NCBI RefSeq assembly: GCF_009914755.1
Contig: NC_060941.1
DNA length: 64,000 bases
Reading direction: 5' to 3' (one strand)
Origin: the human T2T-CHM13v2.0 reference genome, Homo sapiens
Each line of letters begins with the position of its first letter. Positions within the stretch are counted from its first letter, which is position 1. The position numbers and the translations under genes were made by a program. Below are positions 1 through 32,118 of this stretch, piece after piece. The notes under the pieces are model-generated. The model was not told where the DNA came from, made no database searches, and saw only the letters and a list, made by a program, of their open reading frames with translations.

Positions 1-390
1 GTAAAGTGGTGAAAGAACAGCTACTCCATAGACAGAGAAGGGCGTTCCCGAAACTAAGAGAAGGAACGTATCCACCCTAGGTACAATGCTTGTATACATG
101 GGGAGAGGTGCTCTGCTACAAGGGTTTGTGATAAAGAATTAACTTTAATTATTACATTTTGCAAGAATCCCTATTACTACCTTTAAAGCAAAATTAGGAA
201 CGCCTTTGTTCTCCAGATATCCAGCTATCTGGACGCTCGGGTCTCTTCAGTAAACATTAATTTGTTCCCTTAACCGTAAGCATCTGAAAGCTAGGAATAT
301 CCTTCTGAGAATGCAGGCCCGTAAGTCCCGGCCTCATTTTTCTAGCCCTCACTCAAAATGGGGTCGCTTCAGGTTCCAACGTCTCTGACA
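1..390 (-). mobile_element. MER41-family ERV1 LTR (cut by the window edge), near-identical to 3855-4240
   Basis: The reverse complement starts TGTCAGAGACGTTGGAACCTGAAGCGACCCCATTTTGAGT, resembling the MER41 5' end. A GAS-type TTCTGAGAA lies at 303-311. Confidence 0.7.
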
Positions 391-884
391 GTCATACTAC
401 ATATGACTCAGCCACGTCAATGGAAAAAGTAGACTGGATAGTGACGTACCCGCAGAAAACGAATACAACAATCTGTCATATAGATCTGACCGCAGTCAGA
501 TTCTGCAGTGAAGTAAAGCCGGTAAACTTGCATGCAACGATCTTCATACCGCATCCAACAAAGCCACGTAAATCCAAAAGCAGTGCGACTCTGGATAGTG
601 AAACACATGCGGGAAACTTGAATGGAAAGATGTTTATACTGCCTCGGATGGAGACACGTAAATGAAAAAACAGTCCCGCTTGGGATAGTAAAGTAGGGGC
701 GCTAAACTTAAATATAACGATCCGAATATCGCATCTGAGTGTGCCAAGTAATAGCAGAGACCAGTCAGAATACGGATACTGATGTGGGTGCGGTAACCTT
801 AAATCCAATGACGGTCACACCGCATTTGATTAAACCAAGTGAAACCTAAAGCAGCCACACTCTCCAAAGTACGCGCTGCTGACT
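391..884. repeat. Cassette 1 tail: degenerate ~90-bp tandem units, CpG-rich
   Basis: Recurrent (G)CAGTC..GATAGTGAA..GC..AAACTT.AAT..CACGTAAAT motifs. Homologous to 4241-4720 and 6588-6950. Confidence 0.75.
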
Positions 885-1069
885 TATACACAAGTGTGCT
901 AACAGGCCCCGAAGATCCGATGCAAACGCGTGGAGGTAACGAAAGAAGCTCCCATTCCACCTTGTCAGCAGACAGCGTTTAGAGATCTCCTTTGCTGATG
1001 TAACGCGAAATAACAGTAACTGATAGAGCAAGTTCCGCACTTAACCTGAGCCTAAACGACCAAGGCGCT
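885..1069 (-). pseudogene. Extremely diverged U2 snRNA-derived sequence (cassette 1 head)
   Basis: Minus-strand TGGAATGGGAGCTTCTTTCGTTACCTCCACGCGT matches U2 TGGAATAGGAGCTTGCTCCGTCCACTCCACGCAT at 26/34. The 5' part AGCGCC..TTAGGCTCAGGTTAAGTG..TATCAGTT is colinear with the U2 5' end. The span is ~185 nt, like U2. Confidence 0.7.
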
Positions 1070-1104
1070 GCCGGCATTAGCGTTCGTCCACGGCCCTCCT
1101 CCTC

Positions 1105-2190
1105 TTAGAGCCAAGTGTATTAATAGGTCCCGACAATCTGAGTGGAGATGACAAGAGGCTCCCATTCTATGAGTGGAGATAACAAGCTGATGACGAAACC
1201 CGGGTGCTCCCCTCATTGGCACCCAGCAGGCAGCACCGGCCCGCTCCCGGAGCCCTCCATCCTGCGCTTTCCCAAACCCCCATCAAAACACCAACCCAGT
1301 CTCCTCCCTCTCAAGCCATTTTCCAACCTGCCTGGGAGCCACTCTGATCTCCCAGAACACCTCATTTTGTGAATTATAAACCTTTTCACACCTTCTCGGT
1401 CCCTGTGTGATGTCACCAGTCTCGATTTCCAAAATAAATTTGGGGTCAGTGGTGGGGCTGGGGTCCATCTAGTTCTGCAGAGTGGGAACAGCACAGAAGC
1501 TACCGGACTTGCTGTGCGCATAGTCCAATTTGGGTGCAAAAGCCTCCCCACTGGACTGGGTGGCCTCTTATCAGTGACAAAACCAAGGGATTTGCTAGTC
1601 CCTCATTTACACACTGGTTACTGAGTGCCTCCCGTTGAGTTGAACACTTTTACTTCCGGGGAAAATTCGTTGTTCCAGACCAAGTTGACTACTGTCTTCA
1701 CTGGACATTCTAAGAGGTGCTTTTGGTCCCAGGGAAATACCCCGGAAGCTGTGAAGTACAACAGCCTTAGGCCCTGTCCCAAATATTCTAATTTAATGGC
1801 TGTACGGTGGGGCTAGGACCTCAGGATGATTCACTCCACCGAGGTATCCGGTCGTCCTGAAGTATAGCCAAGGTTGAGAAGCACCGATAGACACGGAAGA
1901 ATTTTCACTCCCCTTCAGCAAAGACCTTTGTAGGTATGACCTCCTTTGGCTGTCATTGTTCAGAATGGTGGGGGGTCTGGCAAGAGCGAGTCTTAGGGCT
2001 GAGACTAAACCCAATTTATAGGATTTAAGTCCTCTAGATGGGAGGTGGGACAACTGGGACTGCTCACTTGTTCACATGTACATCGGCCTGGTGTATTTCC
2101 ACCAGAAACTGTTCCTCATTATACTGTCTGCCTGGGCCGATCCCTCCTGTCATAAGTTGACACAAGTAAATTGCAAAGTCCTAATCACCT
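1105..2190 (-). mobile_element. Probable ERV internal (env SU-like) remnant replacing the cassette 1 promoter
   Basis: Broken minus-strand frames contain gammaretroviral SU-like pieces (DFAIYLCQLM; NPLVLSL..W..GL). It starts abruptly after the promoter-proximal remnant at 1084-1104. Confidence 0.4.
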
Positions 2191-2194
2191 AATT

Positions 2195-2971
<777 letters not shown>

Positions 2972-3741
2972 TAGCTACAAAGGAGTTTTTTTAGTGTGCA
3001 AAACCAAACAAAACAGCAAGGAGAAAAGTCCCCTGATTTCCACCCTAGTGCTTCTCAATCACACTCAGCATAGCAGCAACAAAACACAACCACATCTATC
3101 GAATCTTATTGCTCACGGCTGTTAAATATCAAATCTCAATCAGCAATTTTAGAGACGGATCCTCCAATGCTTTTGGTTCCCAGTGTTTCACAAGCAAACG
3201 GACAGAAATCGGGAGGGACATAGGAGAAGAATCAGTTAAAATCTCTAAGACCAGTTAAATGAAGTCTCCTGAAAATGACACTGAAACGGAGACAGCAACC
3301 AAGACAAGGAGGACGAGGCAGATTAATACAAAGAGCAGAGCCTGCGGTGTCAAACCTGTTTTTTAGCCGAGAGGGACTTTACTGAGAGGGGCCTCTAACC
3401 CCCTAAATCTTAGAAGGGACTCTAACCCTCCTCGATCCGGCCTCTAACCCGAGGTCGGTCAAGCGTCCTTGCCTTTTATTAAGAGGGGCCTCTAACCCAC
3501 TCTCTTTTAGGAAAGACTCTAACTCCATTAAGTTGGGCCTCTAACCCAATCCCATTCTTTACCCGGGCACTCCACCACTTACCCAAAGTCAGTCTACTGA
3601 CTACTGCAGTGCTGCAGTCTACTTCCTTTGGGTTGGGGGAGTTTCTTCAGTATCGTCCCTTCCATCATTCGCCAGAAATATGTTATAGGACCCCAACACT
3701 TCCCCAAAGCACTATAGTCCCATCTGTGGTGGCCAGAAATA
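2972..3741 (-). mobile_element. ERV1 (MER4/MER41-group) internal leader adjoining the LTR
   Basis: Abuts the 3' end of the LTR, contains CCTCTAACCC reiterations and PBS-like TGGC starts on the minus strand. Confidence 0.5.
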
Positions 3742-4240
3742 CGTCACAGGAAAAGGGCCCCGATCCAGACCCAAAGAGAGGGTTCTTGGGTCTCGCGCAA
3801 GAAATAACTCAGGGCGAGTCCACGGTGCAAAATAAAAGCAAGTTTATTAAGAAAGTAAAGTGGTGAAAGAACAGCTACTCCACAGACAGAGAAGGGCGTT
3901 CCTGAAACTAAGAGAAGGAACGTATCCACCCTAGGTACAATGCTTGTACACATGGGGAGAGGTGCTCTGCTACAAGGGTTTGTGATAATTAACTTTAATT
4001 ATTACATTTTGCAAGAATCCCTATTACTACCTTTAAAGCAAAATTAGGAACGCCTTTGTTCTCCAGATATCCAGCTATCTGGACACTCGGGTCTCTTCAG
4101 TAAACATTAATTTGTTCCCTTAACCGTAAGTATCTGAAAGCTAGGAATATCCTTCTGAGAATGCAGGCCCATAAGTCCCGGCCTCATTTTTCTAGCCCTC
4201 ACTCAAAATGGGGTCGCTTCAGGTTCCAACGTCTCTGACA
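3742..4240 (-). mobile_element. MER41-family LTR, full length
   Basis: The + strand runs from CGTCACAGGAAAAGGGCCCCGATCCAGACCCAAAGAGAGGGTTCTTGG to GTCTCTGACA. GAS-type TTCTGAGAA at 4153-4161. Confidence 0.75.
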
Positions 4241-5134
4241 GTCATACTACATATGACTCAGCCACGTCAATGGAAAAAGTAGACTGGATAGTGACGTACC
4301 CGCAGAAAACGAATGCAACAATCTGTCATACAGATCTGACGGCAGTCAGATTCTGCAGTGAAGTAGAGGCGGTAAACTTGAATGCAACGATCTTCATACC
4401 GCATCCCACAAAGCCACGTAAATCCAAAAGCAGTCCGACTCTCGATAGTGAAACACATGCGGTAAACTTGAATGGAAAGATGTTTATACTGCCTCGGATA
4501 GAGACACGTAAATGAAAAAGCAGTCCCACTTGGGATAGTGAAGTATGGGCGCTCAACTTAAATAGGACCGTCCGCATATCGTATGTGAGTGAAGCAAGTA
4601 ATAGCAAAGGGCAGTCAGATTACGGAGACCGATGGCGACTGAAGTGAGTGCAGTGATCGTCACGCCGCAACCAAGTGAAACCGAAAGCAACTAAGCGCTC
4701 GAAAGCACGCCCGGCCAGCTCAAAAACTACGGCGCTGATGGACCCCAGTGATCCGACGTAAAGGTGCAAACGTAAAGCGCACACGGCCAATTTAAAAGCA
4801 GCGGCGCTTATAGGCCCGGACGAACCGACGTGAACGCGTAGAAGTAAGGTACGCGCGATGAGCTTAAATATGCGAGTACTAAGAGACCGTGAAACCCGGA
4901 TTTAAGCGTGTAAACGCAACACACAACCTAGGAGGTCAGTAACAACGGTCCCAACTGATGCAAACGGCCCAATGCAAACACGTTGAGAATCTCCCGTTAG
5001 CGACAGTAACACACGCTAAGCAACCAATACGAACAAAACTCCCGCTTCGAAAACTGCACCTCGGAATCCTTCCAGCAATCAAGGGCCAGCAACAGCACAA
5101 ACCTTCCACGGTATCAACGCCGCTTTCAAAATGA
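4241..5134 (-). ncRNA. Cassette 2: putative ~0.9-kb snRNA-promoter-driven ncRNA built of ~70-bp and ~90-bp degenerate tandem units
   Basis: Lies directly downstream of a PSE and DSE at canonical spacing. Unit starts: GCAGTC at 4342, 4430, 4520, 4611 and CGGCGCT-like at 4730, 4802, 4873. Transcription is inferred, not shown. Confidence 0.5.
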
Positions 5135-5362
5135 AAACGTTAACGATCGGCCACTGTACTCCTTCTCCCACACATCCTAACCTCAGGGTGACAGATAGCA
5201 CCCTGAATAACTCTCTCTCCTACGTTGAGATTGTGTATCTTTATCCAAATCTGAACACCTGCGTAAGTAATATTGTTACTATTTTGGAGGATATTCACTT
5301 TCCTTTTTTGCTCCCATAACTCCCGAGAGAAGCAGCCATTTTAAATTTGCATGCCCCGCCCC
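5135..5362 (-). promoter_or_regulatory. Pol II snRNA-type promoter: PSE 5171-5192, octamer 5345-5352, GC box 5354-5362
   Basis: The minus strand reads GGGGCGGGGCATGCAAAT (as in the U2 DSE), then AAAATGGCTGC (YY1-like), and ~160 bp later GTCACCCTGAGGTTAGGATGTG. No TATA box. Homologous to 11871-12107. Confidence 0.8.
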
Positions 5363-5504
5363 AGACGCGCCGTGCCCTGCCTGCCAACCACTGAACAGAA
5401 AAGCGCCTGTAAATCACTGGAATCTTGGGAAAGCTCCTTCGGCTTCATTGCCCTTCAGGAGGAAAAACCCACAACGGAAAAGACACGAAGAGCTCTAGGA
5501 GGCT

Positions 5505-5605
5505 CTTCTTTCCTCCTCCTCCCCCTCCCCTTCCCCTCCCCTCTCCCTCCGCCTCCCTTCCCCTCCGCATCCCCTCCCCCTCCCTTCCCCCTCCCCCTCC
5601 CCATC
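5505..5605. repeat. C/T-rich low-complexity tract
   Basis: Runs of CCCCT/CCCT. Confidence 0.9.
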
Positions 5606-5703
5606 TCGTCCTGACCTAGCTGGCATCCAACATTACTTTAAACTTTTTTTCACACATACGTTGAAAGAATTGTTTGGTGAACACCCGTATGCCCATCACC
5701 TAA

Positions 5704-6052
<349 letters not shown>

Positions 6053-6239
6053 CAATTACATATTTTGTATAGCTGCACACATGGAGACAGGTACTCAGGT
6101 CTCGTCCCTCTAGCCATTTCTCAACTGTCTGGTCCGGCAAGGGCAAGTTTTCGAGGAGGCCAGGGTGCAGCCCTCAGGGGAGCACATGCTCTGACTGGTT
6201 GCAGGGCTGGGCGGAACCTTGGGAAAGGGGCCCCTGTAA

Positions 6240-6548
<309 letters not shown>

Positions 6549-6587
6549 TGAGGTACCGCACCCAGCCCCACATTACTATCTTCAAAG

Positions 6588-9035
<2,448 letters not shown>

Positions 9036-9039
9036 TGGC

Positions 9040-10880
9040 CGTTTTCTCTAGTTTCTTTAAATTTCCTCAAAATGGCTATTTTGAATTCTCTGTCTGAAAT
9101 GTCACGTCTCAGTTCCTCTGGAATTGAACAAATGTGGTTTGGTGAGACCATGTTTTCTTGGATGGTCTTGATGTTTGTGGATGTTTGTTTTGTCTGCGTA
9201 TGGAAGAATTAGGTATTTACTGTATTTTTCACAGTCTGGGCTTGTTTCTGTGTGTCTTTCTTGGGAAGGCTTTCTGGGTATTCCAGGATATGTGTGCCCC
9301 AAGTCCAATCATGCTGTGATTCTTACAGACTTGTAGAGGTACTACCCTGGTGGTTATTGGGGGAAATTCAGCCAGCTATCAGGCAAAATTCACCCCTGAT
9401 ATTTTACGTAGTTCTTTTCTATTTTCCCGAAGTGTCGGCCAGTCTGAGAAATAAAGGGACAGAGTACAAAAGAGATAAATTTTAAAGCTGGGTGTCTGGG
9501 GGAGACATCACATGTTGGCAGGTTCCGTGATGCCCCCTGAGCCATAAAACCAGCAAGTTTTTATTAGTGATTTTCAAAAGGGGAGGGAGTGTACGAACAG
9601 GGTGTGGGTCACAGAGATCATGTGCTTCACAAGGTAATAGAATATCACAAGGCAAATGGAGGCAGGGCAAGATCACAGGACCACAGGACTGGGGCAAAAT
9701 TAAAATTGCTAAGGAAGTTTCAGGCACACATTGTCATTGATAACATCTTATCAGGAGACAGGGTTTGAGAGCAGACAACTGGTCTGACCAAAATTTATTC
9801 GGCGGGAATTTCCTCGTCCTAATAAGCCTGGGAGCGCTATGGGAGACTGGGGCTTATTTCATCCCTACAGCTTCGACCATAAAAGATGGCCGCCCCCCGA
9901 AGCAGCCATTTTAGAGGCCTACCCTCAGGGACGCATTCTCTTTCTCAGGGATGTTCCTTGCTGAGAAAAAGAATTCAGCAATATTTTCCCATTTGCTTTT
10001 GAAAGAAGAGAAATATGGCTCTGTTCTGCCCAGCTCACCGGTGGTCAGAGTTTAAGGTTATCTCTCTTGTTCCCTGAACATTGCTGTTATCCTGTTCTTT
10101 TTTCAAGGCGCCCAGAATTCATGTTGTTCAAATACACATGCTCTACAATTTGTGCAATTTACACAATCATCACAGGGTCCTGAGGTGACATACATCCTCC
10201 TCAGCTTACGAAGATGACGGGATTAAGAGATTAAAGTAAAGACAGGCATAGGAAATCACAAGGGTATTGACTGGGGAAGTGATAAGCGTCCATGAAATCT
10301 TCACAATTTATGTTCAGAGATTGCAGTAAAGACAGGCGTAAGAAATTATAAAAGTATTAATTTGGGGAACTAATAAATGTCCATGAAATCTTCACAATTT
10401 ATATTCTTCTGCCATGGCTTCAGCCGGTCCCTCCATTCAGGGTCCCCAGCTTCCCGCAACAGTGGTCTTGGATGAGATCTGAAAGAATCCTCTGGATTAC
10501 CAGGCAGAGACTCTTGTTCTTTTCCCTTACTTTCTCCTAAATAAATGGAGTCTCTCTCTGTGCTGAGATGCCTAAGCAACCCTGTGCTGGTTCAGACCCA
10601 AACCCAGCACAGCACCAGGTCTCACTCAAAGGCCTGCTAGATCCACTACCTGCTACCACCTATGCCCCCTCAAAGCAGTAGAGCTCTAGGATCAGGTGGC
10701 CAAGCCAGCCAGGATTATGTCCCTCCCTTTAGGGCAGTGAGCTCCCTCAAGCCCTGGGTGGGTGCTGGAATGCTGTCTAGGAGCCAAGGTTTGGAGTCAA
10801 GACCTTAGAAATGTAACTGATGTTTTATTCTACTGCAGTTAAGCTCCTAGGGAAACCACAAGAAAAAAGTTCTCCCCACT
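9040..10880 (-). mobile_element. Old L1 5'/ORF1 region interrupted by MER11
   Basis: Minus-strand translation ISDREFKIAILRKFKE is L1 ORF1-like. The sequence resumes after the LTR. Confidence 0.7.
9355..10461 (-). mobile_element. MER11 (HERV-K11) solo LTR
   Basis: The reverse complement begins TGTTGCGGGAAGCTGGGGACCCTGAATGGAGGGACCGGCTGAAGCCATGGC. Flanked by the TSD GTGGT. Confidence 0.85.
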
Positions 10881-11664
10881 CTTGGCTAACTGCAAGATGC
10901 CTCCGATGAGGCCTCCTACCCAAACCTTTCTTATTCGCAGGGACCAGGCTTTCTTACTCGCAGGGACCAGGCTTCAGCTCCCTGACTAAGAAGTCAAATA
11001 AAGGTCGGGCGCGGTGGCTCAGGCCTGTAACCCTAGCATTTTGGGAGGCCAAGGCGGGCTGATCACTTGAGTTCAGGAGACAAACCTGGCCGACATGGTG
11101 AAACTCCCTCTCTCCTAAAAATACAAAAATTAGCCAGCCATGGTAGCGAACGCCTGTAGTCCCAGCTACTCGGGAGGCTGGGGCGGGAGGATCGCTTGAA
11201 TCCGAGAGGCAGAGGTTGCAGTGAGCCGACATGAGGCCACTTCACTCCAGCCTAGGCAACAGAGTGAGACTCGGTATCAAAAAAAACAAAAAAGAAAAAA
11301 TGTGAGCAGTTGGGAAGCAATAATATGAAAAATGAGAGCAAAAGTAACTGCAACATTGGGGAAGACTAAACAACGTCGCTTCTGGCGTTGGCTTATGGAT
11401 GACCACCCCGCTTTCTTCACGTTTTAACTGTCTGGAGTCCAGAAATTAGCAATGCACCTCCTTGGCATATCAGGATGCCAACAAGCACCCTTGTCCCCAG
11501 TTTCAGGACTCGGCGGCGTACTTTCCCAATACGCATTCCCTTATTCTCAATCCGGTTAAAAGCAAAGAAGTAATACCACCCACCAATACTTTCCTTATAC
11601 AACACAAAAACACACACACACATACACAACACCACATAATGAAACCAACGCGAATGTAAGTAAA

Positions 11665-11681
11665 TCTGTTCTTTGTAAAAC
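11665..11681 (-). terminator. snRNA 3' box
   Basis: Minus-strand GTTTTACAAAGAACAGA just past the U2-like 3' end fits GTTT-N-AAARNNAGA. Confidence 0.7.
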
Positions 11682-11685
11682 GTGT

Positions 11686-11870
11686 TTTGACCCTCTTTGG
11701 AAACACGGCAATACCAAGTCGATGCGCAGAGTGGAAAAAACCAGCTCCTATTTCATCTTTCTATTCCAAAACCCCACTTAAATATATCGTCCTCAGACCA
11801 AAAAAAATCAGTTATTCAACTGATAAAAACATGCTACATTGGATCTTAGTCAAAAAGCCAAAAAAGAAAC
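11686..11870 (-). pseudogene. Diverged full-length U2-like snRNA gene or pseudogene
   Basis: Minus strand TTGGCTTTTTGACTAAGATCCAATGTAGCA..TATCAGTTGAATAACTGAT..GAGGACGATATATT..AGATGAAATAGGAGCT..GCATCGACTTGGTATTGC is colinear with U2. The branch-point recognition and Sm sites are altered. Confidence 0.88.
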
Positions 11871-12107
11871 AACACGTTTCTTTCGGCCACAGCACTCCTT
11901 CTCCCACTCATCCTGAGGTCACGGTAAGAAAAATGATCCTCAAGTAAAGAAGCACTCTCTTCCCTAAGTTCACACAGTGTTCCTTGTTACAATTTGTAAC
12001 ATTGCATAAGTAATACTGTTACAAATTTGGGGGGGATATTCGCTTTCTCTTTTTGTTCCCATAGCTCCTGAGCGAAACAGCCATTTTATATTTGCATGCC
12101 CCGCCCC
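11871..12107 (-). promoter_or_regulatory. Pol II snRNA-type promoter: PSE about 11907-11928, octamer 12090-12097, GC box 12099-12107
   Basis: CTTACCGTGACCTCAGGATGAG at about -58 and GGGGCGGGGCATGCAAAT at about -225. Confidence 0.85.
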
Positions 12108-12539
12108 ACAGGCTCCGAGCTCCGTCCTCCCCGCAGGCTGGCCCTATTACCACCATCTAACATCATCTTGCTGGACTTGCTTTATGTATTTATTTAAGAC
12201 GGATTCTCGCACTGTTGCCCGGGCTGGAGTGCAGTGCCGCCATCTCGGCTCCGCTTCCCGGGTTCACGCAATTCTCCTGCCTCAGCCTCCCGAGTAGCTG
12301 GGATTACAGGCGTACACCAGCACATTAGGCTAAATTTTTGTATTTTTAGTAGAGACTGGGTTTCACTATGTTGGCCAGACTGGTCTGGAACTCCTGACCT
12401 CGTGATCCGCCCGCCTTGGCCTCCCAAAGTGCTGGGATTACAGGCGTGAGCCACCGTGCCCGGTCTGGACTTACTTTATTATATGTTATAGACATGTAAT
12501 TACATATTTTGTATAGTTGACCACACAGAAACAGGCACT

Positions 12540-13050
12540 TAGGTCTCCGTCCCTCTAGCCATTTCTCAACCGTCTCGACCGGCGAGTTTTCGTTGAGGCG
12601 AGGGAGCGCTCGCTCCCACAGGTTCGAGGGCTGGGCGGAGCCTTGGGAAACGGGCCCTGGTAATCTCCGCTCAGTGAGTGGCGCTGCGAAGCTGCTTCTG
12701 CCCGGGAAGGAGGAGAGGGGCCTGGAACCGCCGAGGGAACCACCAGTTCCGACGCCCTGGGGTGGGCCCGGAGGACCGAGTGGCTGGGGCGGCACGGGGC
12801 GGGGGGCTGGGCGGGAGGAGCGGGGGTCCAGGAGGTGACCCAGGAGGGGGTAGGATCGGGCTGGGCCTCGTGGGCTCCCTGCCCCCGGAGGGGGCGCGCA
12901 GAGGGAGGGCGGTAGCCCAGTGAGCGCGACCACTACTTCCCTGTGAACGCGAGAGCTCAGACAAGCCACAGGGGGCCAGAGCCGAGAAACCGGAAGACCG
13001 GCGAGGAGACCATAGCACACTCCCAGGAAAGAGAGCGCGAGGGCTTGGGC
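12540..13050. promoter_or_regulatory. CpG island upstream of the U2-like gene
   Basis: High GC and CpG content, GC boxes, and an ETS-like ACTTCC. Confidence 0.65.
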
Positions 13051-13199
13051 CAGGATGGGGGCAGTGCGGGGGCTGAGGAGTGGCCAGATTCTGGGTGTAC
13101 TTTGAAAGCAGAGCTGATGGCCTTTGCGGACAGTTGGGATGAGGGGTGAGAGAAAGGAGTGGAGGGTGACTCCAAGGGTTTGGCCAGAGCGACTGCCAC

Positions 13200-14840
<1,641 letters not shown>

Positions 14841-30781: not shown

Positions 30782-31002
30782 TCATCACCCCTCCACAGCC
30801 AAGCTGAGATTTAAAGCCCTCCAAGTAAAGTCGAACATGTTCCCTCCTTGGAAATGAATATTCTTGTTTTGGGTCCTAGGATACTCTCCATAAATCATGA
30901 ACCTTATGATACTTAAAGGAGTAAGAAAACCTACCAACTATCCTAAACTACCCGGCGCAGTCTTTTCTTTCTAACCTTGCAAACAGGTTGTATCCCAGGA
31001 GA

Positions 31003-31191
31003 GGGAGCCCCATTCCTGGAGGTACTGCAATACCAGGTCGACGCGTGGAGTGGACAGAGCAAGCTCCTATTTCATCTCCCTGCTCCAAAAATCTATCTAA
31101 TATAATTGTTCTCTGATAGAGGACGTATCAGATATTAAACTGATAAGAACAGATACTACACTTGATCTTAGCCAAAAGGACGAGAAGAGAT
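31003..31191 (-). pseudogene. RNU2-4P: Near-intact U2 snRNA gene copy with genomic flanks
   Basis: About 90% match to U2 by eye, with GTAGTA and the Sm site GATTTTTGG intact. 3' box-like GTTTGCAAGGTTAGA at 30970-30984. The symbol is inferred from remembered position upstream of ARL4D. Confidence 0.9.
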
Positions 31192-32085: not shown

Positions 32086-32118
32086 CGGGCTTTCATTTCG
32101 AATTTGCATGCCCTGCCC
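32086..32118 (-). promoter_or_regulatory. U2 distal sequence element (octamer 32102-32109)
   Basis: Minus-strand GGGCAGGGCATGCAAATTCGAAATGAAAGCCC matches the U2 DSE context, with the GC box mutated. Confidence 0.85.

What the first reader, a model, noticed from the sequence alone, without database searches (positions are those of the whole stretch)
4241..5362. Intact snRNA-type promoter driving a ~0.9-kb repeat-built RNA instead of an snRNA
Seen: a PSE (5171-5192) and an octamer plus GC-box DSE (5345-5362) at U2-like spacing, with no TATA box, predict a minus-strand start near 5134. The promoter and ~1 kb of upstream flank are homologous to those of the U2-like gene at 11870. The downstream body is not recognisably U2: it is G/T-skewed, CpG-rich, built of tandem units, and I see no 3' box before the MER41 LTR. 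Established: PSE plus DSE without TATA recruits SNAPc and Pol II, and 3' end formation uses the 3' box and Integrator. Inference: a U2 paralogue became a longer capped, probably non-polyadenylated ncRNA that U2 homology searches would miss.
Basis: partly seen in the sequence, partly recalled or inferred. Interest (0 to 1): 0.9.

Follow-up and report, generated by a model that had tools for sequence, protein, structure and literature searches.

The report
Fossil U2 gene with surviving promoter
This is a decayed, ancient copy of a U2 snRNA gene unit beside the human RNU2 array: its promoter is still recognisable, its RNA-coding part has rotted into a CpG-dense repeat, and nothing shows it makes a new RNA.

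Summary
An exact GC-box plus octamer (5345-5361, minus strand) and a PSE (5171-5191) stand at the spacing of the working U2 genes: octamer -220 and PSE -59, against -221 and -60. There is no TATA box and no 3' box. The promoter and about 1 kb of flank are about 74% identical to those of the U2-like gene at 11869.

The body is not foreign. Its only detectable relatives in the window are two unannotated, badly decayed U2 genes 4 kb to either side (1106-926 and 7171-6991; nhmmer E 1e-7 to U2). The body lines up with them in the same order: U2 relic, 3' flank, 90-nt repeats, LTR. Part of the body, equivalent to U2 nt ~133-160 plus flank, is triplicated.

So this is a fossil U2 repeat unit that kept its promoter, not a promoter driving a new kind of RNA.

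Whether the promoter still fires could not be tested. The PSE scores in the range of working PSEs, but only the DSE is conserved above background.

The body is the most CpG-dense stretch of the window (o/e 1.26), and its CpGs decay slowly. That is unexplained. Verdict: a new member of a known kind, of moderate interest.

The parts
6054..6239 (-). Upstream flank shared with the U2-like unit at 11869 (12465-12663). The block 6132-6080 is also shared with the Jana A relic unit (1335-1281).
   Evidence: blastn 74%. Local alignment score 44, reached by 0 of 300 shuffles.
5756..6053 (-). Alu inserted in the upstream flank. It sits at a different place from the Alu in the 11869 unit.
   Evidence: Many Alu-type matches within the window. 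SRP/Alu-type Rfam matches at 5773-5919 and 5940-6053. Direct reading.
5512..5602 (.). Purine/pyrimidine tract between flank and DSE. It coincides with the RefSeq 'silencer' 5506-5605 in the hub's table.
   Evidence: TRF periods 6, 11 and 17; hub annotation.
5345..5361 (-). DSE: GC box plus octamer, identical to that of the array U2 unit.
   Evidence: 17 of 17 identical to the 11869 paralogue, against 75.8% for the rest of the promoter; Fisher p 0.011.
5171..5191 (-). PSE, 161 nt downstream of the octamer as in the array unit.
   Evidence: Alignment A1. Matrix score 9.9 bits. Spacing. nhmmer U2-unit profile hit 5195-5145, E 0.006.
5131..5133 (-). Start predicted from PSE spacing, with an A at 5132. 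This is an inference only.
   Evidence: PSE at -59/-60. No expression data were available.
4921..5146 (-). Proximal body, single copy in the genome. It is probably the decayed 5' two-thirds of a U2 gene and is collinear with Jana A relic 1093-968. Homology to the 11869 and array promoters stops at about 5147.
   Evidence: Unique in the genome. Score 32, reached by 2 of 500 dinucleotide shuffles. A direct comparison with U2 is not significant.
4698..4920 (-). Three tandem units of ~75 nt. Each is homologous to Jana A relic 943-862, which corresponds to U2 nt ~133-160 plus 3' flank. CpG o/e is 1.64.
   Evidence: nhmmer E 0.004, 0.14 and 0.77. The reciprocal search gave E 0.0069 and the reversed control found nothing. 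Alignment A4. CpG figures.
4241..4697 (-). 3' flank and the 90-nt repeat ('stutter' of the Jana preprint). Local copies lie at 391-874 and 6589-6939.
   Evidence: TRF 4357-4563; preprint passages.
3710..4240 (-). LTR of a dispersed family, called MER41C in the preprint. It carries the first poly(A) signals downstream of the predicted start (ATTAAA 3999, AATAAA 3848).
   Evidence: 1252 first-look candidates. 40 were scored, giving 41 matches that include the query itself and two local copies; the copies on other chromosomes are mostly 79-83% identical. Most begin at query base 1-3. Poly(A) signals; family name.

Best explanation
This is a fossil repeat unit of an older generation of the U2 snRNA gene cluster. 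It lies inverted in the 'Jana' C segment, about 40 kb distal to the present RNU2 array.

Shown: the enhancer (GC box plus octamer), the PSE, their exact 161-nt spacing and about 1 kb of upstream flank descend from the same ancestor as the array U2 promoter and the U2-like gene at 11869.

Shown through a sister relic: the DNA after the promoter is what is left of the U2 coding region and its 3' flank. It has decayed past recognition by U2 models. One ~75-nt piece is triplicated. It is followed by the same 90-nt repeats and LTR that follow two decayed U2 genes in the neighbouring Jana A segments.

Inferred: it no longer makes any snRNA-like product. The DSE has been kept since the paralogues split and probably still binds Oct-1 and Sp1 as an enhancer or weak promoter. 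The body behaves as a CpG island that is unmethylated in the germline. If the PSE still recruits SNAPc and Pol II, the transcript would have no 3' box, no Sm site and no stable fold. It would run on towards the LTR poly(A) signals and be degraded, rather than accumulate as a functional long ncRNA.
For: Promoter homology and spacing.

Paralogy with the 11869 unit.

The sister relics are U2-derived:
- Array U2 nt 3-148 aligns to window 1067-928 with score 54. The 200 dinucleotide shuffles gave 26.7 +/- 3.4, maximum 41.
- The nhmmer U2 profile hits 1106-926 and 7171-6991 at E 1e-7.
- The reciprocal search hits RNU2-4P at E 2.5e-5 and the array unit at E 4.5e-7.

The body is homologous to the sister relic:
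- 4813-4612 aligns to 984-762 with score 107, against 27.4 +/- 3.6 in 100 shuffles.
- 5111-4846 aligns to 1093-866 with score 46, against a maximum of 41 in 200 shuffles.
- The proximal 226 nt alone score 32, reached by 2 of 500 shuffles.
- With the body as nhmmer query, the only hits in the masked 64-kb window are the two relics (E 0.0069), and a reversed control found none.

The order relic, 90-nt repeat, LTR is the same in both.

The DSE is 17 of 17 identical between paralogues, against 75.8% elsewhere (p 0.011).

CpG island behaviour: o/e 1.26, the top of the window. CpG-site divergence is only 1.9 times the non-CpG divergence in the body (12 of 61 against 42 of 409). In the adjoining LTR it is about 16 times (3 of 22 against 3 of 364).

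No 3' box, 5' splice site or poly(A) signal lies before the LTR. Folding z-scores are +1.53 and +0.10.

Passages of PMC12667742 say that poorly cleaved snRNA variants are degraded.
Against: A direct comparison of the body with U2 is not significant. The Smith-Waterman score of 34 was reached by 11 of 200 shuffles, and that match lies in the LTR. The proximal 226 nt against three U2 sequences scored no better than shuffles. U2 profiles, with or without the relic included, find nothing in the body. Rfam finds no U2 in either the body or the sister relic.

The link for the first 226 nt therefore rests on one pairwise alignment at about p 0.004. MAFFT offers a different register for it.

By the transitive map the U2 start would lie near 5088. 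That is about 103 nt from the PSE rather than 60, so a junction or insertion near 5147 is not excluded.

Features that fit a live promoter: the PSE score is in the working range, the spacing is exact, a CpG island begins just downstream of the predicted start, and the hub's table lists RefSeq enhancers at 3829-4524 and 4570-4734. I had no expression, ChIP or methylation data.
Confidence: 0.65

Rival explanations
1. The snRNA-type promoter is live: SNAPc and Pol II start near 5132 and make a 0.9-1.3 kb capped RNA from the repeat-rich body, which has taken on a role of its own.
For: The DSE is exact, and the PSE scores 9.9 bits against a mean of 9.0 for 12 working genes. Spacing is identical to the array unit and there is no TATA box. 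The CpG-dense, slowly decaying island starts at the predicted start. Passages of PMC3499247 report seven unannotated loci bound by SNAPc, GTF2B and Pol II, plus a 'U2-like' locus. Their coordinates are in a supplement I could not open.
Against: The hub's RefSeq table has no transcript here. The PSE is conserved no better than background. There is no 3' box and no fold signal. CpG density and slow CpG decay are also seen in the Jana A relics, where no DSE was found (2 of 81 CpG-site columns differ against 10 of 696 others). The island therefore does not argue for PSE-driven transcription. Variants that lack good 3' cleavage are reported to be unstable.
Confidence: 0.2
2. The working element today is an enhancer or orphan CpG island, independent of the PSE. 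The octamer and GC box, together with the CpG-dense relic and repeats, act on neighbouring Pol II units or mark a chromatin or recombination boundary.
For: The DSE is conserved and the PSE is not. The two sister DSEs lie at lncRNA starts in the hub's table: 32102-32118 is inside LINC00910 exon 1, and 12090-12106 is about 300 nt from the LOC105371785 start (plus hub). The hub lists RefSeq enhancers over 3829-4734. CpGs are retained. Preprint passages place Jana at the edge of the BRCA1-RNU2 linkage block.
Against: The RefSeq enhancer intervals do not cover this DSE. No target gene is known. The evidence is indirect and the CpG counts are small.
Confidence: 0.35
3. Chimera. A rearrangement joined a U2 promoter at about -15 to unrelated local repeat DNA, so the body never was a U2 gene behind this promoter.
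For: Homology to the 11869 and array promoters stops sharply at about 5147. There are about 43 extra nt between the PSE and the mapped U2 start. The body does not match U2 directly.
Against: The body's only relatives are themselves U2 relics and are collinear with it. The Jana A unit carries the same upstream flank block and has a PSE-like site at 1179, about 110 nt from its own U2 start. The long spacing may therefore be shared ancestry. Even a join between two diverged U2 units would leave this a fossil U2 unit.
Confidence: 0.15

Closest known systems
Degenerate RNU2 repeat units in the distal flank of the RNU2 array (RNU2-4P at 31003-31191; LOC124904147 at 11681-11869)
   Same: Same strand, same promoter ancestry (DSE, PSE, flank) and the same chromosomal neighbourhood. 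Preprint passages describe 34 kb of 'degenerating RNU2 repeats', mostly inverted, proximal to ARL4D.
   Different: Those two still score as U2 in Rfam (177.9 and 61.1 bits), and this one does not. This one keeps DSE-to-PSE spacing exactly, whereas RNU2-4P has its DSE displaced to -918. It lies inside Jana. The passages I read describe Jana in terms of Alu, ERVL, PRIMA41 and MER41C and do not mention U2.
Working U2 gene of the 6.1-kb RNU2 array unit (L006, U2 at 5457-5647)
   Same: GC box, octamer and PSE at the same distances, with no TATA box.
   Different: No U2 coding sequence is recognisable. There is no 3' box; the array unit has GTTTCCTAAAAGTAGA just after the gene. No homology to the rest of the 6.1-kb unit was found apart from Alu.
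Transcribed snRNA pseudogenes and variant genes, and the SNAPc-bound 'Unknown-1 to 7' and 'U2-like' loci of PMC3499247
   Same: An snRNA-type promoter next to a defective or unannotated body. Passages report Pol II and SNAPc on a subset of such loci.
   Different: Those were defined by occupancy, and here occupancy is unknown. The reported unknown loci are said to carry 3'-box-like motifs, and none is found here.
Jana A relics (1106-926 and 7171-6991)
   Same: Sister fossils: a decayed U2, then 3' flank, then 90-nt repeats, then (for the copy at 1106-926) the LTR. They are CpG-rich with slow CpG decay.
   Different: No DSE was found in them, and only about 190 nt separate the flank block from the relic. 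Their U2 part is better preserved than the finding's.

Membership tests
Pol II snRNA-type (SNAPc-dependent) promoter | PSE about 55-60 nt upstream of the start | tested here: met
   Score 9.9 bits on a matrix from 12 real genes (leave-one-out range -0.6 to 23.3). The site is homologous to the array U2 PSE. The start position itself is inferred from the PSE.
Pol II snRNA-type (SNAPc-dependent) promoter | DSE with an octamer about 220 nt upstream | tested here: met
   Octamer at -220 and GC box at -229, against -221 and -230 in the array unit. The 17-mer is exact.
Pol II snRNA-type (SNAPc-dependent) promoter | No TATA box downstream of the PSE (the Pol II rather than Pol III type) | tested here: met
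   No TATAWA between 5191 and 5132.
Pol II snRNA-type (SNAPc-dependent) promoter | 3' box for Integrator cleavage downstream of the RNA | tested here: not met
   0 matches to GTTTN0-3AAARNNAGA in the window. 0 matches to the looser form quoted in PMC3499247, or to a still looser one, in 5140-3400.
Pol II snRNA-type (SNAPc-dependent) promoter | Occupancy by SNAPc, Pol II and Oct-1, and a capped transcript | not testable with these tools
   No ChIP, CAGE or RNA data were available.
U2 snRNA gene or pseudogene (Rfam RF00004) | Match to the U2 covariance model | tested here: not met
   0 matches at E<=10 in 3800-5400. The controls at 31000-31191 and 11682-11869 score 177.9 and 61.1 bits.
U2 snRNA gene or pseudogene (Rfam RF00004) | Sequence homology to U2 | tested here: inconclusive
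   The direct comparison is not significant. The transitive link through the Jana A relics is significant for 4920-4612 and borderline for 5111-4974 (2 of 500 shuffles).
Degenerate RNU2 repeat unit | Promoter and upstream flank homologous to other U2 units at the locus | tested here: met
Degenerate RNU2 repeat unit | Homology to the rest of the present 6.1-kb array unit | tested here: not met
   Only Alu matches between window 1-13500 and the array unit at E 1e-6. This fits an older generation of unit.
CpG island | At least 200 nt with GC >= 50% and CpG o/e >= 0.6 | tested here: met
   The 400-nt windows at 4601 and 4801 have GC 0.525 and 0.505 with o/e 1.38 and 1.29. The whole body has GC 0.486, just under the GC bar, with o/e 1.26.

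The most novel reading that the evidence does not exclude
The fossil is not dead. Its exact DSE-PSE architecture still recruits SNAPc and Pol II, and it transcribes a CpG-dense tandem repeat with unmethylated CpGs at the polymorphic 'Jana' segment, which bounds the BRCA1-RNU2 linkage block. Transcription or the open CpG island there would then help set a chromatin, replication or recombination boundary. A retired snRNA promoter would have been reused as a boundary element rather than as an RNA gene.
Probability: 0.15. Interest if true: 0.65.

Novelty: new member of a known kind. Interest (0 to 1): 0.35.

Why it matters
It extends the known zone of decayed U2 repeat units by about 10 kb, into the polymorphic Jana segment. 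Together with the two sister relics it adds three unannotated fossils, and it shows that an older generation of the U2 unit existed (U2, then 90-nt repeats, with an LTR of a different family).

It is also a clean example of unequal decay within one dead gene. The enhancer stays perfect, the core promoter drifts at the background rate, and the coding part is lost.

The CpG behaviour is the one unusual point. The body is the densest CpG stretch of the window, denser than the ARL4D promoter island, and its CpGs decay hardly faster than other sites. If the promoter proved active, the locus would join the few unannotated SNAPc targets.

Tried and rejected
1. Rfam on 1-35000 at E<=1, on 3800-5400 and on 840-1140 at E<=10 found no U2 in the body or in the Jana A relic. 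Covariance models are blind to these fossils.

2. A PSE consensus recalled from memory found 0 matches at up to 3 mismatches. I replaced it with a matrix from real genes.

3. Short U2-like matches in the 90-nt repeats (4510-4485 to U2 65-90, and 4264-4238 to U2 18-43) are rejected as chance. The repeat units are homologous to each other yet hit different parts of U2, and the scores are at the shuffle maximum.

4. MAFFT's alternative register has ATCG at 5146 as U2 +1 and an Sm-site-like stretch at 5057-5039. It is not supported by any test and is left open.

5. A four-sequence profile of U2 plus the relic did not reach the body.

6. Finding promoter against DNA upstream of the Jana A relic: score 32, reached by 5 of 300 shuffles, and not collinear. 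This is not used.

7. RNA folding of 5132-4921 and 4920-4698 gave no signal.

8. Literature searches by coordinates returned nothing, and the search probably does not read such strings. Searches for LINC00910 with snRNA, for RNU2-4P, for SNAPc ChIP-seq and for SNAPC4 with lncRNA gave no paper that describes this promoter.

Full report
**The observation**

On the minus strand, the 17-mer GGGCGGGGCATGCAAAT (GC box plus octamer) is exact at 5345-5361. The window holds three such sites at up to two mismatches, where 0.01 is expected. The other two lie upstream of the two annotated U2 relics.

I aligned the finding with a working unit of the RNU2 array. I fetched that unit from the same genome as L006 and located its U2 at 5457-5647 by comparison with the window's RNU2-4P. 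The alignment shows that both the DSE and the PSE of the finding are homologous to those of the array gene.

With +1 set at 5132, the octamer, GC box and PSE stand at -220, -229 and -59. In the array unit they stand at -221, -230 and -60.

To judge the PSE without relying on memory, I took 12 real pol II snRNA genes (U1, U2, U4, U5, U7, U11, U12) from this genome and built a position matrix. The finding's PSE scores 9.9 bits. Leave-one-out scores of the 12 genes run from -0.6 to 23.3, with a mean of 9.0. Retro-pseudogene controls score below zero. Only 15 of 127,960 window positions reach 9.0.

There is no TATA box. There is no 3' box by the strict pattern anywhere in the window, nor by looser patterns between 5140 and 3400.

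The promoter (5147-5375) is 74% identical to that of the U2-like gene at 11869. The flank homology runs to 6239.

Rfam finds no U2, or anything else, in 3800-5400 at E<=10.

The body (4241-5146) has CpG o/e 1.26 at GC 0.486. On the minus strand it is T-rich (34% T, 17% A), but G and C are about equal.

Tandem units are real: 90 nt x 2.3 at 4357-4563, and three units of about 75 nt at 4920-4698.

The LTR begins exactly at 4240. It belongs to a dispersed family: 1252 first-look candidates, of which 40 were scored, with the copies on other chromosomes mostly 79-83% identical.

**What the body is**

In the whole genome, 4711-5146 is single copy. 4241-4710 has only local copies, at window 391-874 and 6589-6939, plus a weak one about 8 kb proximal.

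The surroundings are nested duplications. 1-874 matches 3855-4710 at 91%, and 524-2970 matches 6589-9034 at 98.9%. The former extends proximally beyond the window.

Passages of a 2025 preprint (10.1101/2025.11.08.687349) name this 10-kb structure 'Jana', with segments in the order d-ACBAB-p. They describe A, B and C in terms of Alu, ERVL, PRIMA41 and MER41C, and describe a 260-nt 'stutter'. By coordinates the finding lies in the single-copy C segment and the adjoining B. None of the passages I read mentions U2 sequence in Jana.

The turn came from aligning U2 against the neighbours:
- Array U2 nt 3-148 aligns to window 1067-928 (minus strand, Jana A) with score 54. The 200 dinucleotide shuffles gave 26.7 +/- 3.4, maximum 41.
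- An nhmmer profile of three U2 units hits 1106-926 and its twin 7171-6991 at E 1e-7.
- With the relic as query, RNU2-4P returns at E 2.5e-5 and the array unit at E 4.5e-7.

These two decayed U2 genes are not in the hub's RefSeq table, and Rfam does not see them.

The finding's body is homologous to these relics and collinear with them:
- 5111-4846 aligns to 1093-866 with score 46, against a maximum of 41 in 200 shuffles.
- 4813-4612 aligns to 984-762 with score 107, against 27.4 +/- 3.6 in 100 shuffles.
- 4710-3855 aligns to 874-1 at 91%.
- With the body (5146-4698) as nhmmer query against the window, masking the finding itself and the recent duplicate, the only hits are the two relics at E 0.0069. 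A reversed-sequence control finds nothing.

The three ~75-nt units each align to relic 943-862. That segment corresponds to U2 nt ~133-160 plus flank.

The upstream flank block 6132-6080 is also shared with the Jana A unit at 1335-1281, with 0 of 300 shuffles reaching the score.

All these units therefore descend from one ancestral unit: flank, DSE, PSE, U2, 3' flank and 90-nt repeats. The finding is the one Jana fossil that kept its promoter.

**Limits of that argument**

Direct comparison of the body with U2 is not significant. Neither the three-sequence nor the four-sequence profile reaches the body.

For the first 226 nt after the promoter, the only support is one pairwise alignment to the relic, reached by 2 of 500 shuffles. 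MAFFT proposes another register.

Homology to the 11869 and array promoters stops at about 5147, roughly 15 nt before the U2 start. By the transitive map the old U2 start lies near 5088, so about 43 nt are extra.

The Jana A unit has a PSE-like site at 1179, about 110 nt from its own U2 start. The long spacing may therefore be inherited, but a junction between two diverged units is not excluded.

**Is the promoter alive?**

I could not test this. No expression, ChIP or methylation data are reachable.

Indirect evidence cuts both ways.

For activity:
- The exact architecture and a PSE score in the working range.
- The body holds the highest CpG o/e of the window. The top 400-nt windows reach 1.39 against a 99th percentile of 1.05, above the ARL4D island at about 1.01.
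- Its CpGs have decayed slowly. Between the two B copies, CpG-site columns differ at 12 of 61 against 42 of 409 for other columns (ratio 1.9). In the adjoining LTR the figures are 3 of 22 against 3 of 364 (ratio about 16).
- The hub's table lists RefSeq enhancers at 3829-4524 and 4570-4734.

Against activity:
- The same CpG behaviour holds in the Jana A relics, where no DSE was found. There 2 of 81 CpG-site columns differ against 10 of 696 others, while the rest of A shows 8 of 74 against 7 of 1595. The island is thus a property of the relic and repeat DNA, not evidence of PSE-driven transcription.
- Between the two promoter paralogues the DSE is 17 of 17 identical against 75.8% elsewhere (Fisher p 0.011). 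The PSE is 15 of 21, no better than background (p 0.77).
- The predicted RNA has no 3' box, no poly(A) signal or 5' splice site before the LTR (ATTAAA 3999, AATAAA 3848), and no fold signal (z +1.53 and +0.10).
- Passages of PMC12667742 report that snRNA variants with poor 3' cleavage are removed by the NEXT-exosome.

My committed reading has three parts. The locus is dead as an snRNA gene. The DSE is kept as an enhancer. Any PSE-driven transcript would be unstable.

**Comparison and novelty**

The closest known things are four. They are the degenerate RNU2 units in the distal flank (RNU2-4P and LOC124904147), transcribed snRNA pseudogenes, the unannotated SNAPc loci of PMC3499247, and the Jana A sister relics found here.

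The locus passes the sequence tests for an snRNA-type promoter except the 3' box. It fails the U2 covariance test. It is best filed as a degenerate RNU2 unit of an older generation, because it shares nothing but Alu with the rest of the modern 6.1-kb unit.

Searches, and the passages I read, gave no description of this promoter or of U2 relics in Jana. The two coordinate searches probably could not match such strings.

The finding is a new member of a known kind. Interest is moderate, chiefly for the CpG anomaly and the selective survival of the DSE.

Noticed in passing
window 926-1106 (-) and 6991-7171 (-): Two unannotated, heavily decayed U2 genes in the Jana A segments. nhmmer gives E 1e-7 to a U2 profile, and they are collinear with U2 nt 3-148. 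Rfam does not detect them, and the hub's RefSeq table has no row for them.
   Followed up: yes
window 32102-32118 (-): A third copy of the U2 DSE (16 of 17). It lies 918 nt upstream of RNU2-4P, separated from it by Alu insertions, and inside exon 1 of LINC00910 (32063-32672 in the hub's table). The lncRNA may use the old U2 enhancer.
   Followed up: partly
window 12090-12106 (-) and 12408 (+): The exact DSE of the U2-like gene at 11869 lies about 300 nt from the annotated start of lncRNA LOC105371785 on the other strand. This looks like a divergent arrangement around a U2 enhancer.
   Followed up: no
window 3855-4710 against 1-874: Identity between the two B copies changes sharply at the LTR edge. 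Non-CpG divergence is 0.8% in the LTR part and 10.3% in the repeat part. This suggests a recent conversion or crossover ending at about 4240.
   Followed up: partly
window 524-2970 against 6589-9034: All 27 differences between the two A copies lie in 524-982 and 2739-2925. The central 1.7 kb is identical. The ends of the duplicate have a different history from the middle.
   Followed up: no
G000:C17:44197827-44198729 (L004, L005, L008): A third local LTR copy, 79% identical, has 90-nt-repeat-like DNA on its other side. On the minus strand the order there is LTR then repeat, the reverse of the finding. This is as expected if one old provirus had inserted into a repeat array.
   Followed up: partly
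window 4253-4272 (-), also 388-414 (-): Right at the LTR edge the repeat ends in TGACGTGGCTGAGTCAT. From memory this reads as a CRE-like half site next to an AP-1/NF-E2-type TGAGTCA. It lies inside the RefSeq enhancer 3829-4524.
   Followed up: no
window 1159-1179 (-) and 7224-7244 (-): PSE-like sites (11.1 bits on the matrix from real genes) lie about 110 nt upstream of the Jana A U2 relics, within a short local duplication (TCATCTCCACTCA appears twice).
   Followed up: partly
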